A DNA stretch of 64,000 nucleotides from an uncultured bacterium (GCA_963705705.1 CAVPKK010000004.1:32741-96740); one strand, 5' to 3'; shown: positions 2,774 through 14,983, numbered from the stretch's first letter. The notes: generated by a model not told the origin, from the letters alone. Translations and numbers: made by a program.

Positions 2774-2953
2774 TATCTTGGCGATTTGGTGGCTGCGCCA
2801 CCTAAACTTTGCGTCGCTTGCTTGGTGCTTTAGCCCAACCTCGCGCCGCTGAGTTGTATACGAAGTCAAAGCAGGGAAGCACTCGCTTCCTTGTTTGTTC
2901 TCTACCAACCAATTCCTTGAGGGCCGTTTTTTATGGTTATTTCGTTTTTCCAG

Positions 2954-4330
2954 ATGATCACCCGTCCCATGTTTGGCTCGTTCGAACGCGAAGAGTACAA
3001 AAAGTTTTTACGGATGGGATTAATCTTTACCACCCTCATTGGTTCATACTGGACCATGCGCCCGCTCAAAGATGCAATTTTTTCCGAGCTCGTTGGTGCT
3101 GCAGCAATTCCCTGGGCTAAAACGGCATCTCTCATAATCCTCATCCCAACCGTAATGTTTTATACCCGGTTATTGGATAAATATTCCCGCGAAAAAATGT
3201 TCTATATCCTCTCAGCATTTTACGGGATCACCCTGCTACTTTTTGCACTCGTATTTATTTCACCAATCGGTCTTGGCAGTGCTGAAGAAATAGCAGCACG
3301 TTCAGGCGCTGTAGCTATTCTTGATGATGCACTTGGCTATTTGTGGTATGTCTACGTAGAAAGCTTTGGTTCTCTGATCATTGCGCTTTTCTGGGCAATC
3401 GCATCTGACACAACAATGCCAGAATCAGCTAAAAAAGGGTTTCCTTTTGTAGTCTGCTTAGGCCAAATCGGCGGTATTGTTGGACCACGTTATCTTTCTC
3501 GCCTACCTCGTTATCTAAACTTTGAGACTAGTGCATTAACAGTTGCCATTGTTGGCTGCTTTGTACTTTTGGTAAGCGCATTCTTTACCTATTTCCTTAA
3601 AGCAACTCCTGCGCATCTACTTACCTCTTTCCATGGTAAAAACGAAGCTACAGAGAAAAAAGAACAAGAACCTGGCTTCCTTGAAGGTCTCAAGTTAGTG
3701 CTCGCACACAACTATTTGATCAGCATGTTTGCTGTTTACTTCTTCTACGAGTTCATCGTTACCATTTTTGACTTGCACTTTAAATTTGCAGCTGCATCAC
3801 AATACAAAGGTCTTGCACTTGCAGAGTATCTTTCACACTACGGCTCAATGGTAAACACCGTAGCACTCCTTTGCTTATTGCTTGGTGTAAGTAACATTAC
3901 TCGTTATCTTGGCATCACAATCGCATTGGTCATTCTGCCTATCATCATCTTCGGTGCACTGATTGGCTTTAACATTATCAGCCACTTGGAATTCTTATTC
4001 TGGCTCATGGTAGGCTCTAAGGCTATCAACTATGCACTTAATGGTCCGACCATGAAGCAACTATACATTCCAACTACGCATGATGTTCGCTTCAAGTCAT
4101 CTGCTTGGATCGAAACATTCGGCTCTCGCGCTTCTAAAGAAGGCGGATCACTATTCAACATGCTGCTTGGTCCATTGACCACCAAGTATGGCGTAGTTGC
4201 CGGCCGTGCGATGCACGCGATGTGGGCATCATATGTAGGCTACGCAATGGTTGCCGTTTGGGTATTCATTGCCGCATTCTTGGGCAAAACTTACAACCGC
4301 GCTATCGAAGAGAAACGCGTAGTCTGCTAA
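2954..4330 (+). CDS. Nucleotide transport protein (NTT/Tlc-type ADP/ATP translocase), copy 1
   Basis: 12-TM profile. N-terminal EREEYKKFLRMGLIFT...YWTMRPLKD and the motif FWAIASDTTMPESAKKGFPFVVCLGQIGGIVGP are typical of the Tlc/NTT family of Rickettsia and Chlamydia. Start chosen at an internal Met of the 2933 ORF. Confidence 0.85.
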   Translation: MITRPMFGSFEREEYKKFLRMGLIFTTLIGSYWTMRPLKDAIFSELVGAAAIPWAKTASLIILIPTVMFYTRLLDKYSREKMFYILSAFYGITLLLFALVFISPIGLGSAEEIAARSGAVAILDDALGYLWYVYVESFGSLIIALFWAIASDTTMPESAKKGFPFVVCLGQIGGIVGPRYLSRLPRYLNFETSALTVAIVGCFVLLVSAFFTYFLKATPAHLLTSFHGKNEATEKKEQEPGFLEGLKLVLAHNYLISMFAVYFFYEFIVTIFDLHFKFAAASQYKGLALAEYLSHYGSMVNTVALLCLLLGVSNITRYLGITIALVILPIIIFGALIGFNIISHLEFLFWLMVGSKAINYALNGPTMKQLYIPTTHDVRFKSSAWIETFGSRASKEGGSLFNMLLGPLTTKYGVVAGRAMHAMWASYVGYAMVAVWVFIAAFLGKTYNRAIEEKRVVC

Positions 4331-5196: not shown

Positions 5197-5245
5197 AAAA
5201 GCATGGTCTTTGAACCAAATTTGATTCAAAGACCATGCTTACTAT
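5195..5245. terminator. Bidirectional rho-independent terminator between convergent genes
   Basis: Perfect 14-bp stem GCATGGTCTTTGAA ... TTCAAAGACCATGC flanked by an A-run and a T-run. Confidence 0.75.
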
Positions 5246-5262: not shown

Positions 5263-6474
5263 CTATATTGCAGGGGCACTTGTATTCGTAGTATCAGCTA
5301 TTGGGGCGAAGATCGGTGGCTTAGTTCCACCATAATTGTTTAATAAACCATACGGTGAACCATTATTAAAGGCAATGTTATTGGCAAAAAGCGCAGTTGC
5401 AGCAGGCGAAATATAAGCAGCATAGTTTTCGAATCCATAGCCAGCGTTATAATATGCATTACAATTTTGTATCACAGCATTCGCATCTGGAGCGTCTGCT
5501 GTACCAATCAGGAAACCACTATTTGCGTTGAAGATTGCAGAACAGTTATTTATAAAACTCGATGAGCCTTCAGCACACACAAAACCATAAGAATTATTAT
5601 TTGCTGAACAATGATCAATATAAACACCCGGAGCATCAATAAATATTCCAGCGTTCGCACAGTTTGTTACAACAACATCTCGAATTGATATTTGTGCCGT
5701 TGACCCTTCGATAAGAATGCCAAATGCCGGGGCATTTTGAACAATACCATTCTTTACTGTCACATCATTCGCACTAAATACAACGATTCCATCGTTACCG
5801 CCGGCCACGGTCAGAGTGTTACCATTCAGATTAAACAAAACTTGGTTGCTTGAAATAGTAATTGGAGCCGTAATAGTTGCATTTCCACACAATATATAGG
5901 TACCCGGTACAGTAATCAGGTATCCACCTGCAACATCGGCCGGCGTAAGATAGAAAATATCGCAGCTTGGAACGCAAGAAGAACAAGCTAGAAGATTTCC
6001 TAGCACAGAGAACGTGCCATTAAAGTCTTGAACTAGCTCAGTTTTGATATCTATAAGTTCACTGAATGTGCCGTTGAAGTCATCAATAATTAGTGCTTCG
6101 AGGTCTGCTAAAACTGAGAATGTGCCATTAAAATCTGCAACGAGTGTTGCCTCAATAGCAGCAAGCATCGTGTAAGCACCACTAAGATCACAAGATCCGG
6201 AAGCACATGGGCAAGCTAAAAGGGCCTCAAGCATTGAGAATGTGCCATTGAAATCATTAACAACAAGAACTTCAAGACTATCCAAATCAGATTGGATTGA
6301 TTCTAGCATTGAGAAAGTACCATTGAAATCCGCTTCGAGTTCTGCACAACAATTAGGACGCAGACAACTTCTTTCAGCCATATCCCCGCTCATATCCATT
6401 GCGGATACATATTCCGGTGCGGCCAGCGCGCCAATACACAGAGCGGCCATTAGGGTTTGTTTAAACGACATCAT
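5263..6474 (-). CDS. Secreted right-handed beta-helix (PbH1/pectin-lyase fold) protein. The N-terminal region carries five or more DFNGTFS(x)L repeats.
   Basis: Signal peptide MMSFKQTLMAALCIGALAAPEYVSA with AAGGAG RBS. Repeated DFNGTFS motif. C-terminal PbH1-like N-x-x-A/G repeats (NCNAYYNAGYGF, HCSANNNSYGF). Paralog of 6744-8768. Confidence 0.7.
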   Translation of the reverse strand: MMSFKQTLMAALCIGALAAPEYVSAMDMSGDMAERSCLRPNCCAELEADFNGTFSMLESIQSDLDSLEVLVVNDFNGTFSMLEALLACPCASGSCDLSGAYTMLAAIEATLVADFNGTFSVLADLEALIIDDFNGTFSELIDIKTELVQDFNGTFSVLGNLLACSSCVPSCDIFYLTPADVAGGYLITVPGTYILCGNATITAPITISSNQVLFNLNGNTLTVAGGNDGIVVFSANDVTVKNGIVQNAPAFGILIEGSTAQISIRDVVVTNCANAGIFIDAPGVYIDHCSANNNSYGFVCAEGSSSFINNCSAIFNANSGFLIGTADAPDANAVIQNCNAYYNAGYGFENYAAYISPAATALFANNIAFNNGSPYGLLNNYGGTKPPIFAPIADTTNTSAPAI

Positions 6475-6680
6475 TAGAAACTCCTTTTTCCCGATTGATA
6501 CAAACAACAAGCGCTATCCCGAGTATCAATCACTTCTCGAGATGGCACATACCTTTCAGCGATACAAGTTAAGATTAACTATGGCTCAGAATGAATGGCA
6601 AGCGATGATATCAAAATGAGACGATACCGCTTTACACAAAAAGCTTTTTGGCGACACTCAGTCTAATCTTGTTTTGAGAC

Positions 6681-6726
6681 AAAAAACGAGAGGGACAGTG
6701 GCGTTAACCAAGTCCCTCTGTTTTTA
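6681..6726. terminator. Bidirectional terminator hairpin downstream of 6744-8768 (-)
   Basis: GAGAGGGAC...GTCCCTCT stem with T-runs on both strands. Confidence 0.6.
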
Positions 6727-6743
6727 AGAATATGAATTTAGGA

Positions 6744-8768
6744 TTAAGGCAATGTTGGTACTGCCACATTAGTGAATGGGTTGACGGTGGCAGTGGTCAA
6801 CAGCGTAGTGTATGAAGTCTCCATAAAGGTACCGGTTAGATTAGGTATAGAGAAATTTGCGACATCGTTATTTTGAGCCCAGTTATTGTGATATCTGTTC
6901 AAGCCAGCAGTCAATTCAGCTCCTCCAGTTGAATCATCAAATATGCCATAACCCTTGTTATTATCGAACTGTGAATTGCTTACAGCAAGATTAATCGTGC
7001 TTCCATCAACGTTCAAGCCATAAGCATTTGTACCAACCGAAAATTCCTGAGCATTATTTGCAATACAAGCATCAACATATCCGAGTTGCAAGTTATATAC
7101 CCTAAAACCAGCTGCACCAATTGCATTTGGTCCCGTAGTAATTGTGCTTCCTATAATGGTTTGTACGGTGCAATGATCAAATACAATATTAAATTGAGTA
7201 TCTTCTATTTGATCATTTCTGGTCGTAGAAAAACCTGATGCTTCGCCGCCACTAAAATTTTCAATGACGTCAGCTTGAGAATCTCGACAGACAATGCTGG
7301 AGCAAAAGTTAATAAAATGGCCGCCATCTGCAAAACCATTTCCTACAGATAAATTAGCGATCGCATGCGCGTTAAAGCGTTCCACTATCCCGCCTAGAAT
7401 ACTGGACCAGCTGAATCCTGCAGCGCCAGCAGAAGGCAAAGCGCCTCCAGAGACTATTGATGATGCCGAGCAATCGGTCATGATAATATTTTTAGAATCC
7501 GAAGCCTCGAAACCAGCGGCCATACCAATTTTTGCTATAAGATTATTGGCAACACAAGAACGTAGTATTACATCAAAAGTACCAATAGTAGTAAAACCAG
7601 CAATAATTGCTGCGAGCCCAGAGCCACCATCTGTATGCGCATTTGATTGGCAATTCAGGTATGTAATAGTCTCAGAATTATTGTCACAGAAGCCAGCAAG
7701 CCGTGATGCATTTGGTGCGATTATATTGCTGCTCTGACAGTTTTCATACAATACATCTGTTGAATTCTGTATATAAGCACCTGCAGCAGCAACCGCAAAT
7801 CCATAGTCGGAAGTTACCGCAACTGTTTGTCCAAATGAAAACTGACAATTGGTGACAAGCAAATCGCGGACACTGTCTCCAACTAAAGCTATTGAATCTG
7901 ATGCGGCTACTGTTGCATCAAGTGAAAACCCTGTTTGGAGAATGTTTACATGATCAATGGCTATTGAAAATGAGGAACGGTTCAATTGAATGCCGAACTG
8001 AGAGAAGTTTCTGATATACCCGTTTACAATCGCGATGTTACTGTTGTTGCTGGTCAATGAAATAGCAGTACATAAAGCGGTATTGTTAACCTGCTGAATT
8101 GTGTGCTCGCTCAGATCTAAGTAAACATTACGCGCAGCAATAGTAATAGCCGTCGTCCCAGGAGCAATAGGAGCAAATGCAATATCCTCCGCAAGACAAT
8201 AAACTCCCGGTGCACTAATAACATACCCGGCCGGACCAACATCTGCTTGAGTAATAGATATTGGTGTACCGCAAGGTGCCAATGCCCCAATATCGATAAG
8301 AATCTCTTCCAGCATGCTAAAGGTGCCATTAAAGTCTTGAACTAGCTCAGTTTTGATATCTATAAGTTCACTGAATGTGCCGTTGAAGTCATCAATAATT
8401 AGTGCTTCAAGGTCTGCTAAGACTGAGAATGTGCCATTAAAGTCTGCAACGAGTGTTGTCTCAATCGCGACAAGCATTGTAAAAGCACCATTAAGATCAC
8501 ATGACCCGGCAGCGCACGGGCAAGCTAAGAGAGCCTCAAGCATTGAGAATGTGCCATTAAAGTCAGCAACTAGCTCAGCTTTAATATCAATCAATTCGCT
8601 GAATGTACCATTGAAATCTGCTTCGAGTTCTGCACAGCAATTCATCTTAGGGCGCAAACAGCTTCTTGTTATTGCATCCTCGCTCATATCCATAGCGGAT
8701 ACATATTCCGGGACGAACAGCGCGCCAACACACAGAGCGGTTAATAGGGTTTGTTTAAACGACATCAT
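6744..8768 (-). CDS. Secreted beta-helix protein with DFNGTFS repeats (larger paralog)
   Basis: Near-identical signal peptide MMSFKQTLLTALCVGALFVPEYVSA. Five DFNGTFS repeats. Long PbH1-like repeat region. DNA segments ~8338-8410 and ~6037-6110 are almost identical. Confidence 0.7.
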   Translation of the reverse strand: MMSFKQTLLTALCVGALFVPEYVSAMDMSEDAITRSCLRPKMNCCAELEADFNGTFSELIDIKAELVADFNGTFSMLEALLACPCAAGSCDLNGAFTMLVAIETTLVADFNGTFSVLADLEALIIDDFNGTFSELIDIKTELVQDFNGTFSMLEEILIDIGALAPCGTPISITQADVGPAGYVISAPGVYCLAEDIAFAPIAPGTTAITIAARNVYLDLSEHTIQQVNNTALCTAISLTSNNSNIAIVNGYIRNFSQFGIQLNRSSFSIAIDHVNILQTGFSLDATVAASDSIALVGDSVRDLLVTNCQFSFGQTVAVTSDYGFAVAAAGAYIQNSTDVLYENCQSSNIIAPNASRLAGFCDNNSETITYLNCQSNAHTDGGSGLAAIIAGFTTIGTFDVILRSCVANNLIAKIGMAAGFEASDSKNIIMTDCSASSIVSGGALPSAGAAGFSWSSILGGIVERFNAHAIANLSVGNGFADGGHFINFCSSIVCRDSQADVIENFSGGEASGFSTTRNDQIEDTQFNIVFDHCTVQTIIGSTITTGPNAIGAAGFRVYNLQLGYVDACIANNAQEFSVGTNAYGLNVDGSTINLAVSNSQFDNNKGYGIFDDSTGGAELTAGLNRYHNNWAQNNDVANFSIPNLTGTFMETSYTTLLTTATVNPFTNVAVPTLP

Positions 8769-9070
8769 TAGGAACTCCTTCTTCCATGATTAATAAAAAA
8801 AGTGCAATCTCGAGCATCAATCGCATCTCGAAATCTCACTGAACTACTTTTTGGCCAATACAATTTAAGAGTACCTGCGGCAGGAAAATCCCGTCAAGCG
8901 ATAGTAGCCAAATGAAGCAATAGAGCATCCGAGAAAGCATTTTCTGATTAAGACGTGAAAATACGGCTAATTTGCAGGCCCTGTAGGCTAAAATCTGACG
9001 ATCCGGTACAATATATCATTGCAAAATGGATGTTAACTGAATATACCTGCTCCCATACCTCATTACCTTT

Positions 9071-11829: not shown

Positions 11830-13497
11830 ATGATTACAAAAAAACTACACCTAGCACTCGCATTATTTACAGCCGTTGCACCCGTTATTGCAAATCCTCA
11901 ACACAACGATTCGTGGGAGTTTGGCAATCTTGTGCAGCATTCACTTAATAACACATCGCAACGCAACCGCCTTAAGCAGGCCTGGACCGACATCTGCAAT
12001 GTCTTTGGTCTGGTAGGTGCGGAGTTTGCAAATCGGATAACCTTAAGTAACAGAGAAGCCGATGTTATTACGCGGTTTGTAAGACAAAATAAAGAACTGT
12101 ATGCCGCTTATGCCGCGACGGGGAATATTGATGATATTTTACCGCAAGTAAGCCAATCAGAAGTTAATGCCATCTTTACATCCAATCTCTATTTACGGGC
12201 TACCGATACGTTAAAAGATATGTGCCGAAATGAAGATCTTCTCTCACGCTGCTCAAATGCTATTAGATCAGCGGGCACCCAGATCATCCAATTTCTTGAT
12301 GCATTGCAACCAAGATCAGACACAGAACGAGCCGACGTAGCGACCATCCGCGAAGAGGTGCGAACGTTTGTAAATTCAGCTGAACCGAATGCCCGAGATT
12401 TAGCGGCTGCATTTACCGACTGGCTATCATCCTATCGCGCCGGGCTTAAACGAGGCATCATAAAAGCACCTCAATTTATACTACCTACCTCGTGGGCACG
12501 CTTACAACATTATGCGGAAGCGGCCCTCCGTGCTTGCGAAGTCGGTGATGGGTTTGTATTCAATCCAATTGTTTCTCTGCTTGAATCGATGGGAAAGGTG
12601 CTGGAAAAACGCTTTGCACCGCCCGCAGCTCCGGCTGATCATGCCACTTATGCGCCCGCTCCAGATAATGGTGATTCCGGGTTCGTTGATCACTTAAAAA
12701 ATTATGGTTTGATGTATGCCGGCATTACCGTTGGTGGTATTGCCATTTGGTATTATTGGTATCGTTCTGCTGCGCAACCGCGACGAGAACCGGATTTAGA
12801 TCCGCGGCCGCGACGACCAGAACCGAATCCAAATCCAAATCGTGGCCAAGGCGCCGTACCGCCACCGCCGCCGTATCAAGAAAATCCACCGCCTATTAAC
12901 CCTGAGTATGCACCAGGGAACCAAGCTCCGGTTTATCCTCGGCTTAATCCACTACCGCAGCCGCCGAATCCGCATCAGGCGCCGCCAGTTGTTCAGGCAC
13001 CACCGGTAGTAAATATTATTAATCAGATGCCAGCTAACCCGCCACAGCCAGCTCCTCAACCGCCAATGGCTGGTTTTATTCCTAATGTAATGGCTTCCAT
13101 GCTTAGGTGCGCTTTTTGCGATCGCCAGCCGTGTTTATGTTGCAGAAGTTGTCATCGCTATCAATGCTCGTGTTGTATGTGGTGCAACCAAACTCCATGC
13201 TTGGGCACTTACGCATTCTGTCTAAATCGACCCCGGCCACAGGCAGTACATGTTCACCATTATCATGAACGACCAGTTTCTCCGGTTGTTGTAGTTCAAC
13301 CTGCACCGGTATCACTGCCAACATATATACCGCCAACAAATGTACGGCCAGCGGTATCATTACCACCAGTTAGCAGCCCAGCAAGTTTGGGCGGTTTTGG
13401 CGGCGGGACTTTCCAGTCATTTGGCAGCTCAGCTAGCAGTGCAAATTCACTATCGCGGGGTAAAGGTTTTGCAACAATGCCTGGGTTTGGCAAATAA
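11830..13497 (+). CDS. Membrane protein with a proline-rich region containing a PPPPPY (PPxY) motif and a Cys-rich C-terminal module; hypothetical, possibly eukaryote-interacting
   Basis: N-terminal hydrophobic leader, an internal TM (GITVGGIAIWYYWY), a ~110-aa Pro-rich tract and the Cys cluster CAFCDRQPCLCCRSCHRYQCSCCMWCNQTPC. Confidence 0.5.
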   Translation: MITKKLHLALALFTAVAPVIANPQHNDSWEFGNLVQHSLNNTSQRNRLKQAWTDICNVFGLVGAEFANRITLSNREADVITRFVRQNKELYAAYAATGNIDDILPQVSQSEVNAIFTSNLYLRATDTLKDMCRNEDLLSRCSNAIRSAGTQIIQFLDALQPRSDTERADVATIREEVRTFVNSAEPNARDLAAAFTDWLSSYRAGLKRGIIKAPQFILPTSWARLQHYAEAALRACEVGDGFVFNPIVSLLESMGKVLEKRFAPPAAPADHATYAPAPDNGDSGFVDHLKNYGLMYAGITVGGIAIWYYWYRSAAQPRREPDLDPRPRRPEPNPNPNRGQGAVPPPPPYQENPPPINPEYAPGNQAPVYPRLNPLPQPPNPHQAPPVVQAPPVVNIINQMPANPPQPAPQPPMAGFIPNVMASMLRCAFCDRQPCLCCRSCHRYQCSCCMWCNQTPCLGTYAFCLNRPRPQAVHVHHYHERPVSPVVVVQPAPVSLPTYIPPTNVRPAVSLPPVSSPASLGGFGGGTFQSFGSSASSANSLSRGKGFATMPGFGK

Positions 13498-13579: not shown

Positions 13580-14983
13580 ATGACTACTGCACAAAAAGTT
13601 ATTCGCTACTTTTATCCTGACTTAAAACAGGAAGAGATAAGAAAATTTGGCATATTATCGGTTATTTTTTTTCTTATCATCGGAACTTATTGGTTACTTC
13701 GTCTGCTTAAGTACACCATTTTCCTTAAGATCGCTTTTCCGGAATGCCATGGTTGGGCATCTGAACAGGGCCGTTTGTTTCAGCCAACGGCAAAGAAATT
13801 ATCACCCTGGATAGTGTTGATCATGGTGCTCATCTACTCCAAATTGGTAGATAAGGTAAAAAAGCACCAGCTCTTTTATATAATCTGTACTTTCTATGCC
13901 ATATTGTTTTGCGGATTCGCTGGCATCCTTTTGCTAAAAGATCTCTACGGAACCCAAATGATAGGCAAATTAGCGTTGGCCACACTTGGCTGGGTAAGCT
14001 ATTTTGCCATTGAAAGCTTTGGTTCATTAGTTGTTTCTTTATTTTGGGCATTCACTAATAGCACTACCGATTCCGATTCTGCCAAACGCGGGTTTCCATT
14101 CATTGTGGCTATGGCACAACTAGCAGCCATTTTTGGATCTGGCACATTATTCTTTTCTGGTTCTCTTGGAACACTGTGGCCTATTTTGCTATTGGCCTCT
14201 ATCTTGGTTTTGGCCGTTATTCCTTGCGTGCGTTATTTCGAGCAACACGTTCCCGCATCAATGATGGTTGGTAACGTTGCTGCGGCGGCAACTGAGAAAA
14301 GGAAGGAAGGCTTCATTGAAGGATTTGTTTCAGGAATTGTATTACTATTTTCTCGCTCCTATTTACTTGGCGTGCTTGTAATTTCAACCTTCTACGAAGC
14401 GGTATCACAAATTGTGGAATATCAGATGCAAGCATATGCCTGCATGGCACCAGCGTATAAAAGCGAAATCGCTTTTGCCCAGTTTATGAGCCTGTATGGC
14501 ATCGCGACCAATGTTGTTTCATTCTTGGTTGCATTGCTTGGCACCGGCTACATTCTTAAACGATTTGGTGCCCGCATTAGTTTGTTAGTTTACCCTATCA
14601 CCTTTGGCCTCACCCTGTTAGGGCTATATACCTATTTCAAATTCCACCCTTCCCCGGCGTTACTATTATGGGCAACCTTTGTTGCAGTGGTAATCTTAAA
14701 GGGAGTTGGTTATGCGGTGAATTCGCCAACCAAGGAAATGATGTATATCCCGACCAGCAAGGATGCCAAATTCAAATCTAAAGGTTGGATCGATACCTTC
14801 GGTAGCCGCTTTTCTAAATCCGGCGGCGCCCAAGTTAATGACATGTTTAAAACCAACCTTCCCGATCTTATGTTTTATGGTTCTATGATCGGCTTTGGCG
14901 TGGTCGGCATCTGGATTGTTGCGGCCATCTATGTTGGCACCAGGAACAAACAACTCGTTGAATCTCGCCAAATCATTGAATAG
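13580..14983 (+). CDS. Nucleotide transport protein (NTT/Tlc-type), copy 2
   Basis: FWAFTNSTTDSDSAKRGFPFIVAMAQLAAIFGSG and KSKGWIDTFGSRFSKSGG match NTT family motifs. Paralog of 2954-4330. Confidence 0.85.
   Translation: MTTAQKVIRYFYPDLKQEEIRKFGILSVIFFLIIGTYWLLRLLKYTIFLKIAFPECHGWASEQGRLFQPTAKKLSPWIVLIMVLIYSKLVDKVKKHQLFYIICTFYAILFCGFAGILLLKDLYGTQMIGKLALATLGWVSYFAIESFGSLVVSLFWAFTNSTTDSDSAKRGFPFIVAMAQLAAIFGSGTLFFSGSLGTLWPILLLASILVLAVIPCVRYFEQHVPASMMVGNVAAAATEKRKEGFIEGFVSGIVLLFSRSYLLGVLVISTFYEAVSQIVEYQMQAYACMAPAYKSEIAFAQFMSLYGIATNVVSFLVALLGTGYILKRFGARISLLVYPITFGLTLLGLYTYFKFHPSPALLLWATFVAVVILKGVGYAVNSPTKEMMYIPTSKDAKFKSKGWIDTFGSRFSKSGGAQVNDMFKTNLPDLMFYGSMIGFGVVGIWIVAAIYVGTRNKQLVESRQIIE

What the first reader, a model, noticed from the sequence alone, without database searches (positions are those of the whole stretch)
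5263..8768. Tandem pair of secreted beta-helix proteins with an unusual DFNGTFS repeat module, homogenised at the DNA level
The two adjacent minus-strand genes share near-identical signal peptides and 5-6 copies of a D-F-N-G-T-F-S-x-L motif at irregular spacing, followed by a Cys-containing linker and PbH1-like parallel beta-helix repeats. DNA stretches ~6037-6110 and ~8338-8410 are almost identical although the rest has diverged, which suggests gene conversion. The DFNGTFS module does not match adhesin repeats I know (it is not the Chlamydia Pmp GGA[ILV]/FxxN pattern). It may be an uncharacterised surface or adhesin family.
Basis: seen in the sequence. Interest (0 to 1): 0.6.

Follow-up and report, generated by a model that had tools for sequence, protein, structure and literature searches.

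The report
Secreted stalk-plus-beta-helix fibre protein pair
Two neighbouring genes encode exported proteins with a short repeat-built stalk and a sugar-binding-type beta-helix head; they belong to a large, undescribed protein family found almost only in Babeliales, bacteria that live inside protists, and probably serve in host contact.

Summary
Genes A (5263-6474, minus strand, 403 aa) and B (6744-8768, minus strand, 674 aa) share a Sec-type signal peptide. Each has five exact DFNGTFS motifs plus one degenerate copy, at 18, 22 or 25-residue spacing, then a Cys-containing junction and a right-handed beta-helix. An 86-nt tract (6014-6099 = 8323-8408) is identical within about 82% identical surroundings. 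No shuffle of 100,000 reached that length, which supports gene conversion.

The repeat matches no Pfam or NCBIfam model and no paper. It is not unique, though. A profile search found 155 protein clusters, some with about 45-57 repeats. All named sources but two are Candidatus Babeliales (Dependentiae) MAGs.

Conserved hydrophobic positions (0, 4, 7, 10, 14, 17/18, 21) and motif spacings follow the 3.6-residue alpha-helix period. All weak profile matches are coiled coils. I therefore read the module as a disulfide-stapled coiled-coil stalk carrying a glycan-binding or glycan-cutting head. AlphaFold with a shallow alignment instead drew short strands there at pLDDT 53-64, so the stalk fold is unsettled.

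Function (host attachment) is inferred, not shown. This is a new variant of a known kind, of moderate interest.

The parts
6744..8768 (-). Gene B, 674 aa: signal peptide, DFNGTFS stalk, beta-helix head, C-terminal tail
   Evidence: ORF. It is protein P0011 in the public collection, on a 160,667-bp contig.
5263..6474 (-). Gene A, 403 aa: the same architecture with a shorter beta-helix head
   Evidence: ORF. The start at 6474 is supported by the RBS and by the alignment with B. It is protein P0010.
8694..8768 (-). B signal peptide (aa 1-25, MMSFKQTLLTALCVGALFVPEYVSA, predicted cleavage after VSA)
   Evidence: Read directly from the sequence: a basic n-region, a hydrophobic core and a small -3/-1 pair. 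It is nearly identical in A and in paralogue P0097.
6400..6474 (-). A signal peptide (aa 1-25)
8271..8660 (-). B stalk module (aa 37-166). It has a CC staple at 44-45 and six F-x-G-T-F-S/T-x-L motifs at 18, 22, 18, 18, 18 spacing. It also has a C-P-C-x4-C knot at 83-90 and a closing Cys at 166.
   Evidence: AF2 pLDDT here is only 53-64.
5962..6366 (-). A stalk module (aa 37-171). It has CC at 42-43 and six motifs at 25, 22, 18, 18, 18 spacing. It also has a C-P-C-x4-C knot at 88-95 and C-x2-C-x3-C at 164-171.
6873..8270 (-). B head: a conserved N-terminal cap (PISITQADVG..GYVISAPGVYCLAEDI) followed by a right-handed parallel beta-helix (aa 167 to about 632)
   Evidence: AF2 pLDDT is 85-98 for residues 170-280 and mostly above 70 up to about 450. 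Foldseek hits are AlgE4 epimerase, Klebsiella phage depolymerases and tailspikes. The best viral hit is a Hyperionvirus beta-helix protein (E 5.8e-11, TM 0.73 on the target).
5305..5961 (-). A head: cap plus right-handed beta-helix (aa 172 to about 390)
   Evidence: Pfam Beta_helix PF13229 covers aa 229-384 at E 2.6e-14; NosD is weak.
6014..6099 (.). 86-nt tract identical to 8323-8408 (covers motifs 4-5 of A): candidate gene-conversion tract
8323..8408 (.). 86-nt tract identical to 6014-6099 (covers motifs 4-5 of B)
6475..6594 (-). Upstream region of A, about 70% identical to the upstream region of B. It contains the AAGGAG ribosome-binding site at 6481-6486.
8769..8888 (-). Upstream region of B, with AAGGAG at 8775-8780
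5199..5240 (-). Terminator-like hairpin with a 19-bp stem and a T-run, just downstream of gene A. No such site lies between B and A.
   Evidence: a consensus scan only.

Best explanation
A and B are tandem paralogues of a lineage-specific family of exported fibre-like proteins of Candidatus Babeliales (Dependentiae), bacteria that live inside protists.

Each chain is exported by the Sec pathway. Its DFNGTFS region is not a set of separate domains. It is one continuous amphipathic helix that assembles, probably as a trimer, into a nearly straight coiled-coil stalk about 18 nm long. The F-x-x-x-F-x-x-L part of every motif sits in the core. The Cys pairs and Cys knots at the start, middle and end lock the chains by disulfides.

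The stalk presents a right-handed beta-helix head of the type that binds or cuts polysaccharides. The most likely role is contact with host (protist) surface glycans: attachment, with or without local degradation.

The gene family diversifies heads and stalk length. Recombination between paralogues (gene conversion) keeps the leader and stalk alike, which explains the 86-nt identical tract.

Shown: the architecture, the family, its taxonomic range, the helical periodicity, the beta-helix fold and the non-random identity tract. Inferred: the coiled-coil fold, the oligomeric state, the disulfide staples, the surface location and the host-glycan function.
For: Architecture and paralogy.

Family:
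- The profile of the module finds 155 representative clusters at E<=1e-3, 79 at E<=1e-10, among 1.84 billion proteins. Members range up to 2,924 aa, with about 45-57 motifs in the richest.
- A degenerate DNA pattern for two adjacent motifs hits 8 loci in 185,579 species genomes, 6 of them in Babeliales MAGs.
- NCBI names for P0063, P0015 and P0161 say Candidatus Babeliales.

Helical register:
- Across the family the conserved hydrophobic positions relative to the motif's first F are 0, 4, 7, 10, 14, 17/18 (the CC pair) and 21. Only 3- or 4-residue steps occur, for 11-, 14-, 18- and 25-residue units alike.
- Motif-to-motif distances peak at 11, 14, 18, 22, 25, 29, 32 and 36, which are integers next to multiples of 3.6. 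At the protein level 307 of 441 spacing types fall on such integers, which make up 28% of all integers.
- The hydrophobic-moment spectrum summed over 81 proteins peaks at 100 degrees.
- Proline is 0.6% of module residues.

Weak profile matches are all alpha-helical coiled coils:
- In the PDB: coronavirus spike HR1 'SNFGAISSVLNDILSRL', influenza HA2, FliS.
- In Pfam: Baculo_PEP_C, HAMP_2, KxDL, HALZ. Baculo_PEP_C is documented as a promiscuous coiled-coil family (PMC3695513).

Head: Pfam Beta_helix for A; AF2 plus Foldseek for B.

Modular diversification:
- The same genome encodes P0097 with the same leader, one motif and a different head. It also encodes P0176 with one motif and a CBM5/12-like stretch.
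- Two tandem paralogues have no motif.
- Other Babeliales loci hold tandem arrays, one with near-identical leaders.
- Locus L001 has beta-helix and beta-propeller heads that share one C-terminal tail.

Gene conversion: an 86-nt exact run, reached by 0 of 100,000 shuffles.
Against: - AlphaFold2 with a 22-sequence alignment drew the module as short beta strands (residues 51-152, pLDDT 53-64). That would suit a beta-solenoid continuing the head.
- The single-sequence model gave helices, but at pLDDT 31-41. Neither model is reliable.
- In A and B the period-2 component of hydrophobicity is as strong as the 3.6 component. It is a forced harmonic of an 18-residue repeat, but it does not exclude strands.
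- The modules are rich in Thr (14%) and have one Gly per repeat. Some relatives have Pro at the Gly position, which is unfavourable for a helix.
- About 30% of spacing types are off register.
- No anchor, secretion partner or glycan-related gene lies next to the pair.
- Oligomeric state, disulfides, location and ligand were not testable here.
- The window's own taxonomic identity was not shown directly. It is inferred from the relatives and from the two ATP/ADP translocase genes.
Confidence: 0.55

Rival explanations
1. The DFNGTFS repeats are coils of a beta-solenoid. Each 18-25-residue unit adds one turn that extends the C-terminal beta-helix towards the N-terminus, with Thr ladders (TFT, TLT) on a flat face and Cys pairs bridging inside. 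The protein would then be one long monomeric beta-helix rather than a stalk plus a head.
For: - The AF2 model built from an alignment predicts strands in every repeat.
- Unit lengths of 18, 22 and 25 are in the range of beta-helix coils.
- There is a high content of beta-branched Thr, Val and Ile, and an N-G turn signature.
- A strong period-2 hydrophobic signal is present in A and B.
Against: - pLDDT is only 53-64 and the alignment of the repeats is shallow and messy.
- The conserved hydrophobic positions are spaced 3 or 4 residues apart with no i/i+2 pairs, unlike solenoid strands.
- Units of 11 and 14 residues are common (31 and 25 proteins) and are too short for a three-sided coil.
- In A and B the segments between motifs (SELIDIKAELVA, MLEALLA, VLADLEALI) are strongly helix-favouring. 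Chou-Fasman alpha exceeds beta in the module, and the reverse holds in the head.
- No beta-solenoid family appears among the weak profile matches.
Confidence: 0.25
2. The proteins are secreted polysaccharide-degrading or polysaccharide-modifying enzymes (lyase, hydrolase or epimerase). They would act on host or bacterial glycans in the vacuole or periplasm, and the N-terminal module would serve only for oligomerisation. They would not be adhesins.
For: The closest solved folds are enzymes: mannuronan C-5 epimerase AlgE4, Klebsiella phage capsule depolymerases, chondroitinase B and alginate lyases. Paralogue P0176 carries a CBM5/12-like stretch.
Against: - The fold matches are weak (E about 4e-4, TM 0.25-0.45, 9-13% identity), and no catalytic residues could be aligned.
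- No CAZyme-type Pfam family is matched beyond the generic Beta_helix and NosD.
- Stalk length across the family varies from 0 to about 45-57 motifs, up to roughly 1,400 aa. That is hard to explain for a soluble enzyme and typical of reach-out fibres.
Confidence: 0.3
3. The pair is a remnant of a phage or giant-virus receptor-binding protein (tailspike or fibril) carried on an integrated element, rather than a bacterial host-interaction family.
For: - The best structural matches in the viral library are Klosneuvirinae 'right handed beta helix' proteins (E 5.8e-11, 21% identity), followed by phage tailspikes.
- The C-terminal repeats of paralogue P0097 match a PHROG tail-fibre family (E 9e-13).
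Against: - tblastn of B against 50,697 phage records gives no hit.
- A and B match no PHROG family.
- Neither the motif pattern nor the cap profile is found in 2.9 million IMG/VR contigs.
- The flanking genes are cellular: transporters, ABC-F and a MutS-like protein.
- A Sec signal peptide is not a feature of virion proteins.
Confidence: 0.05
4. The 86-nt identical tract is not gene conversion. It would reflect either selection on the nucleotide sequence (for example an RNA element or codon constraint) or a mis-assembly of a metagenome-derived contig.
For: The window appears to come from a metagenome-assembled genome, since its relatives are MAGs. The tract encodes the two best-conserved repeats, with no amino-acid differences across B codons 109-150.
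Against: - Synonymous sites are also identical over the 86-nt run, while flanking, equally conserved motifs differ at synonymous sites.
- Both copies are in frame inside otherwise diverged genes, and 86 nt is shorter than a typical read pair, so a chimeric join is unlikely to leave both genes intact.
- Near-identical leaders in tandem paralogues recur in an independent Babeliales genome.
Confidence: 0.1

Closest known systems
Stalks of trimeric autotransporter adhesins (YadA, SadA, UpaG class)
   Same: Both are exported fibrous proteins. In both, a short sequence motif recurs in a coiled-coil stalk with mixed 7- and 11-residue-type periodicities, so the motif always faces the core. Stalk length is highly variable between paralogues, and the role is host adhesion. 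From memory, YadA stalk repeats of the form FDGRxTALDxKV resemble F-N-G-T-F-T-A-L-x-D-I-K; this is a lead, not a test.
   Different: No YadA-type C-terminal membrane anchor and no YadA stalk or head Pfam domains are matched. The globular head is C-terminal, not N-terminal. It is a single-chain right-handed beta-helix. Periodic CC pairs are present.
Phage tailspike / capsule depolymerase proteins and bacterial beta-helix carbohydrate enzymes (AlgE4 epimerase, chondroitinase B, PL6 lyases)
   Same: They share the right-handed parallel beta-helix fold of the head and an N-terminal oligomerising or attachment module followed by a variable receptor-recognising head.
   Different: There is no sequence-level match. 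A Sec signal peptide is present, there is no phage context, and no catalytic residues were identified.
'Right handed beta helix domain-containing' proteins of Klosneuvirinae giant viruses (Hyperionvirus, Klosneuvirus, Edafosvirus)
   Same: These are the best structural match of B's head (E 5.8e-11, TM 0.73 on the target, 21% identity). Both kinds of organism infect protists.
   Different: The DFNGTF module was not found in viral contigs. The relation rests on predicted structures only.
Chlamydial polymorphic membrane proteins (Pmp)
   Same: Both are multi-gene families of exported beta-helix proteins in an obligate intracellular bacterium.
   Different: There is no GGA[ILV] / FxxN repeat array (0 and 1 GGA[ILV] in A and B). 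There is no Chlam_PMP or autotransporter Pfam match, and the phylum is different.
Pfam Baculo_PEP_C (PF04513)
   Same: Long family members exceed this model's cut-off in the repeat region (for example P0165 at 66 bits against 38).
   Different: A and B do not match it. The model is a known promiscuous coiled-coil family (PMC3695513), so the match indicates composition, not homology.

Membership tests
Right-handed parallel beta-helix (Pfam Beta_helix PF13229, pectin-lyase fold) | Sequence match to the PbH1-type repeat profile above the curated cut-off | tested here: met
   Protein A scores 53.6 bits against a cut-off of 25.9, E 2.6e-14. Protein B has no Pfam match.
Right-handed parallel beta-helix (Pfam Beta_helix PF13229, pectin-lyase fold) | Predicted fold superimposes on solved beta-helix proteins | tested here: met
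   The B model has pLDDT 85-98 over residues 170-280. All top Foldseek hits are beta-helix proteins, though with modest scores in the PDB (E 4e-4) and stronger ones in BFVD (E 5.8e-11).
Alpha-helical coiled-coil fibre | Conserved hydrophobic positions spaced 3 and 4 residues apart throughout the repeat, and repeat lengths that are sums of 7 and 11 | tested here: met
   Positions are 0, 4, 7, 10, 14, 17/18, 21. Unit lengths are 11, 14, 18, 22, 25. At the protein level, 70% of spacing types are on register.
Alpha-helical coiled-coil fibre | Helical secondary structure and an oligomeric bundle | tested here: inconclusive
   Single-sequence AF2 gave helices at pLDDT 31-41. AF2 with an alignment gave strands at pLDDT 53-64. 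No multimer prediction was available.
Trimeric autotransporter adhesins | C-terminal YadA-like membrane anchor (12-strand barrel made by three chains) | tested here: not met
   No YadA_anchor, YadA_stalk or YadA_head Pfam match in A, B or ten relatives. The C-termini end in a short N-hydrophobic-x-hydrophobic motif instead.
Chlamydial Pmp / classical autotransporters | GGA[ILV] and FxxN repeat array plus a C-terminal autotransporter beta-barrel | tested here: not met
   A has 0 GGA[ILV] and B has 1. There is no Chlam_PMP or Autotransporter Pfam match.
Phage tailspike / tail fibre | Sequence relatives in phage genomes or phage protein families, and a phage gene neighbourhood | tested here: not met
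   No tblastn hit in 50,697 phage records. No PHROG match for A or B. The neighbours are cellular genes.
Pfam Baculo_PEP_C (PF04513) | Match above the gathering score | tested here: not met
   No match for A or B at E<=0.01. Longer relatives do match, but the family is a documented coiled-coil attractor.
Babeliales DFNGTF-repeat / beta-helix family (defined here) | Signal peptide, then Cys-flanked F-x-G-T-F-[ST]-x-L repeats, then the conserved cap C-x-P-x-I-x-Q-x(7-11)-PG-x-Y-x-L, then a beta-helix | tested here: met
   A and B score E 3e-66 and 1e-63 against the module profile and carry the cap.

The most novel reading that the evidence does not exclude
The DFNGTF repeat would define a previously unseen type of bacterial surface fibre. 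It would be a nearly straight coiled coil with a 3.6-residue period, covalently knotted at regular intervals by CC pairs. In Babeliales it would be built from 1 up to about 45-57 motifs (roughly up to 200 nm) and would carry interchangeable heads (beta-helix, beta-propeller, CBM) used to capture or enter protist hosts. The beta-helix heads would have been exchanged with Klosneuvirinae giant viruses that infect the same hosts.
Probability: 0.15. Interest if true: 0.7.

Novelty: new variant of a known kind. Interest (0 to 1): 0.45.

Why it matters
Dependentiae (Babeliales) are widespread obligate parasites or symbionts of protists, with almost no experimentally studied proteins. How they recognise and enter hosts is unknown.

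A large, lineage-restricted, rapidly diversifying family of exported stalk-plus-head proteins is an obvious candidate for the host-recognition machinery. It also gives concrete targets for antibodies, structures and glycan-binding assays.

For protein science, the repeat is a clean natural example of a motif locked to a 3.6-residue register, with periodic Cys pairs.

The structural link to giant-virus beta-helix proteins hints at shared solutions, or gene flow, among protist-infecting agents.

None of this is categorically new. Stalk-and-head adhesins, beta-helix receptor binders and concerted evolution of paralogue leaders are all well known.

Tried and rejected
- Word-index homologue searches were limited. 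With B residues 1-198 only 2 hits came back, and with a module alignment only short fragments. The family became visible only with the full HMMER scan.
- The first genome-contig scan, with a protein alignment, found no confirmed relative.
- Exact look-ups of B and P0001 for their contigs failed.
- Cluster look-ups gave no names.
- Both metagenome-contig scans, with a leader pattern and a two-motif pattern, returned nothing.
- Viral searches found no relative, either by pattern or by cap profile. Two further attempts failed because the alignments were too divergent.
- Sequence searches of the PDB gave no real hit for B, and only weak coiled-coil hits for the module profile.
- The afdb50 fold library was not available.
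- Literature searches for the motif, and for Dependentiae or Babeliales with beta-helix, coiled-coil or adhesin, gave nothing relevant.
- Rfam found no RNA in the window.
- Single-sequence AF2 of A was uninformative, with pLDDT 42.
- Considered and rejected: Pmp or autotransporter, TAA membership, a prophage tailspike, and homology to Baculo_PEP_C. Reasons are in the membership table.


Full report
**What is there.** Two adjacent minus-strand ORFs occupy 5263-6510 and 6744-8768. Gene A most likely starts at 6474. There the protein begins MMSFKQ exactly as B does, an AAGGAG lies 6 nt upstream in both genes, and about 120 nt upstream are about 70% identical between them.

Both proteins begin with a typical Sec signal peptide (MMSFKQTL..ALC.GAL..PEYVSA, then MDMS). 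Each has five exact DFNGTFS motifs and one degenerate copy (DLSGAYT in A, DLNGAFT in B). Motif starts are A 49, 74, (96), 114, 132, 150 and B 51, 69, (91), 109, 127, 145. No further copy exists in any frame of the window.

Cysteines flank and interrupt the module:
- CC lies just before motif 1.
- C-P-C-x4-C lies before the degenerate motif.
- One to three Cys lie at the junction with the head.

The first ~290 residues are 57% identical.

**The heads.** Protein A's C-terminal part matches Pfam Beta_helix (E 2.6e-14). Protein B matches no Pfam, NCBIfam, PHROG or PDB sequence.

An AlphaFold2 model of B, built with 22 relatives, gives a right-handed beta-helix with pLDDT 85-98 for residues 170-280 and mostly above 70 up to about 450. 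Its best solved-structure neighbours are all beta-helix proteins that act on polysaccharides: AlgE4 mannuronan epimerase, Klebsiella phage depolymerases, tailspikes and chondroitinase B. The scores are modest (E about 4e-4, TM 0.25-0.45).

In the viral predicted-structure library the best hits are better, and they are giant-virus proteins. The top one is a Hyperionvirus protein at E 5.8e-11, TM 0.73 on the target and 21% identity. Klosneuvirus, Edafosvirus and Barrevirus proteins follow, and then phage tailspikes.

**DNA homogenisation.**
- The two genes share a 299-nt direct repeat at 85% identity and a 110-nt repeat at 89%.
- Inside the first repeat, 6014-6099 equals 8323-8408 exactly (86 nt). 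A wider span, 6013-6135, is 119/123 identical.
- In a codon-guided alignment of the leader and stalk (477 nt, 88 differences), none of 100,000 shuffles of the differences produced an identical run of 86 nt. The mean longest run was 24 and the maximum 71.
- Flanking motifs that are equally conserved at the protein level do differ at synonymous sites.

A recent conversion or recombination tract is therefore the simplest reading. A strong terminator-like hairpin follows A (5199-5240) and none separates B from A (a consensus scan only).

**The repeat is undescribed but not unique.** Searching the 5.8-billion word-indexed collection with B's N-terminus gave only two relatives. A full HMMER scan of 1.84 billion cluster representatives, using a four-sequence profile of the module, gave 155 clusters at E<=1e-3, 79 at E<=1e-10 and 22 at E<=1e-30.

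Many members are 1,000-2,900 aa long. A protein in locus L006 has up to 57 loosely defined motifs, and the representative set reaches 46. The family consensus is D-F-N-G-T-F-T-x-L-x-D-I-K-N-T-L-T-x-C-C. It is usually followed by the same conserved cap (C-x-P-x-I-x-Q, then PG-x-Y-x-L-x-E-[DN]-I) and a beta-helix.

No Pfam or NCBIfam model describes the repeat. Long members exceed the cut-off of Pfam Baculo_PEP_C. That model is documented as one of the most promiscuous coiled-coil families (PMC3695513). The motif strings occur in no paper of the library.

**Where the family lives.** A degenerate DNA pattern for two neighbouring motifs hit 8 loci among one genome each of 185,579 species. Six are in Candidatus Babeliales MAGs, one is an unclassified bacterial MAG, and one is a single hit in an archaeal MAG. 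The proteins that carry NCBI names are all from Candidatus Babeliales bacteria. Nothing was found in phage genomes, IMG/VR contigs or JGI metagenome contigs.

The window itself is not named. It encodes two ATP/ADP-translocase-type transporters (2933-4330 and 13580-14983) and a RING-finger protein. Both are typical of obligate intracellular bacteria. I infer a Babeliales or Dependentiae origin, but I did not show it.

**Family dynamics.** Two further paralogues come from the same sample. P0176 lies on the window's 160,667-bp contig.
- P0176 (1,003 aa) has one DFNGTFS motif and the same cap.
- P0097 (760 aa) has a leader about 80% identical in DNA to B's, exactly one motif, and a different head. 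That head ends in repeats matching a phage tail-fibre PHROG.
- P0097 is preceded by two tandem beta-helix paralogues that lack the motif.

Other Babeliales loci show tandem arrays of two or three members. In one, two neighbours share nearly identical leaders. In L001, four beta-helix members and three beta-propeller proteins share one C-terminal segment.

So leaders and stalks are kept alike while stalk length (0 to about 45-57 motifs) and heads vary. This is the pattern expected of receptor-binding fibre families.

**What the module most likely is.** The 'irregular' spacing is regular in helical terms. Across the family, motif-to-motif distances pile up at 11, 14, 18, 22, 25, 29, 32 and 36 residues, the integers nearest to multiples of 3.6. 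At the protein level, 307 of 441 spacing types fall on such integers, which make up only 28% of all integers.

Within units of every length, the positions that are at least 60% hydrophobic are 0, 4, 7, 10, 14, 17/18 and 21. Only steps of 3 or 4 occur, which is the a/d pattern of a coiled coil with one stutter per unit. The CC pair occupies one such step. Further points:
- The summed hydrophobic-moment spectrum of 81 members peaks at 100 degrees.
- Proline is rare, at 0.6%.
- Every weak profile match, in the PDB and in Pfam, is an alpha-helical coiled coil. The best is the coronavirus spike HR1 segment SNFGAISSVLNDILSRL.

I therefore read the module as a continuous coiled-coil stalk of about 120 residues, roughly 18 nm, in A and B. 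The Cys pairs and knots would act as inter-chain staples, as in other extracellular coiled coils. The staples and a trimeric state are inferences.

**Counter-evidence.** The alignment-based AF2 model draws short strands in every repeat, but at pLDDT 53-64 and from a shallow, poorly aligned set of repeats. The single-sequence model draws helices at still lower confidence. The modules are Thr-rich, each motif has a Gly, and A and B show a strong period-2 signal that is a harmonic of their 18-residue repeat.

A beta-solenoid extension of the head therefore stays a live rival, at about 0.25. Units of 11 and 14 residues and the absence of i/i+2 conservation argue against it.

**Function.** No anchor domain, secretion partner or glycan-metabolism gene lies next to the pair. 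Sec export and the extracellular-type Cys pattern point to an exported protein. The head fold and the family's modular diversification point to a receptor-binding role. Together they indicate an exported protein that contacts glycans, most plausibly on the protist host. Whether it only binds or also cleaves cannot be told here.

A recurrent C-terminal end (aromatic-x-N-hydrophobic-x-hydrophobic) is present in 42% of long members against 6% background. B has it as FTNVAV. It may be a cap or a sorting signal.

**Comparison and verdict.** Functionally the closest analogues are trimeric autotransporter adhesin stalks and phage tailspikes. Membership in either is excluded by the missing anchor domain and by the missing phage relatives or context. 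Pmp and classical autotransporter membership is also excluded.

The finding is real. It is a new, lineage-specific variant of a known kind of protein, a stalk-and-head host-interaction fibre, with a clear signature of gene conversion between tandem paralogues. Interest is moderate (0.45). It is valuable for Dependentiae biology and as a clean repeat system, but it is not categorically new.

Noticed in passing
window 20228-21388 (+): A 386-aa ORF with a C-terminal RING finger (Pfam zf-C3HC4_3, E 1.3e-5, just below the cut-off). This is a eukaryote-type E3 ubiquitin-ligase domain in a bacterial genome, so it is a candidate host-targeting effector.
   Followed up: no
window 2933-4330 (+) and 13580-14983 (+): Two TLC / NTP-NDP exchange transporter genes lie within 12 kb and flank the pair. 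This is a hallmark of energy parasitism in obligate intracellular bacteria.
   Followed up: partly
window 11830-13497 (+): A 555-aa ORF with a signal-like N-terminus, a long proline-rich region and a dense Cys cluster (CAFCDRQPCLCCRSCHRYQCSCCMWCNQTPC). It has no Pfam match.
   Followed up: no
window 6242-6619 (+) and 8353-8793 (+): Plus-strand ORFs of 125 and 146 aa lie antisense to the repeat regions, with their own 'VPLKS' repeats. They mirror the minus-strand repeats and are most likely not genes. The same mirror ORFs appear opposite family genes in the Babeliales loci.
   Followed up: partly
C-termini of family proteins; B aa 662-669 (window about 6762-6785): A short aromatic-x-N-[LIVM]-x-[LIVMF] motif lies within the last 12 residues of 53 of 125 long members, against 6% at random internal positions. 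It is present in B and weak in A. It may be a C-terminal cap or a sorting signal.
   Followed up: partly
L001 3060-7760 and 1498-13519: In an ENA metagenome contig (35% GC), three lactonase-type beta-propeller proteins and four DFNGTF/beta-helix proteins lie in one array. They share the same ~100-aa C-terminal segment ending GLTGPFAGxNLF[IM], so heads are swapped on a common tail.
   Followed up: partly
L011 4337-6619 (P0097), aa 610-740: This paralogue from the same sample has two ~70-aa C-terminal repeats that match PHROG tail-fibre family phrog_38233 (E 9e-13) and phrog_21413 (E 7e-19).
   Followed up: no
model of B against the BFVD library: The best structural neighbours of the head are Klosneuvirinae giant-virus beta-helix proteins (E 5.8e-11, 21% identity). 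They rank ahead of all phage tailspikes and all solved structures. This could reflect gene flow among protist-infecting agents, or bacterial contigs binned into the virus MAGs.
   Followed up: partly
L004 2321-4714 and 4851-8000: In a Babeliales MAG, two tandem family genes have almost identical leaders (MNPKSLSKKMSFLILISLIFQPISIQSKQH and MNRKSLSKKISFLILISLIFQPISIQSKQR) but 5 and 35 motifs respectively. This is the same leader homogenisation as in the window.
   Followed up: no
window 1-64000: No Rfam family, not even a tRNA, reaches its gathering score in 64 kb.
   Followed up: no
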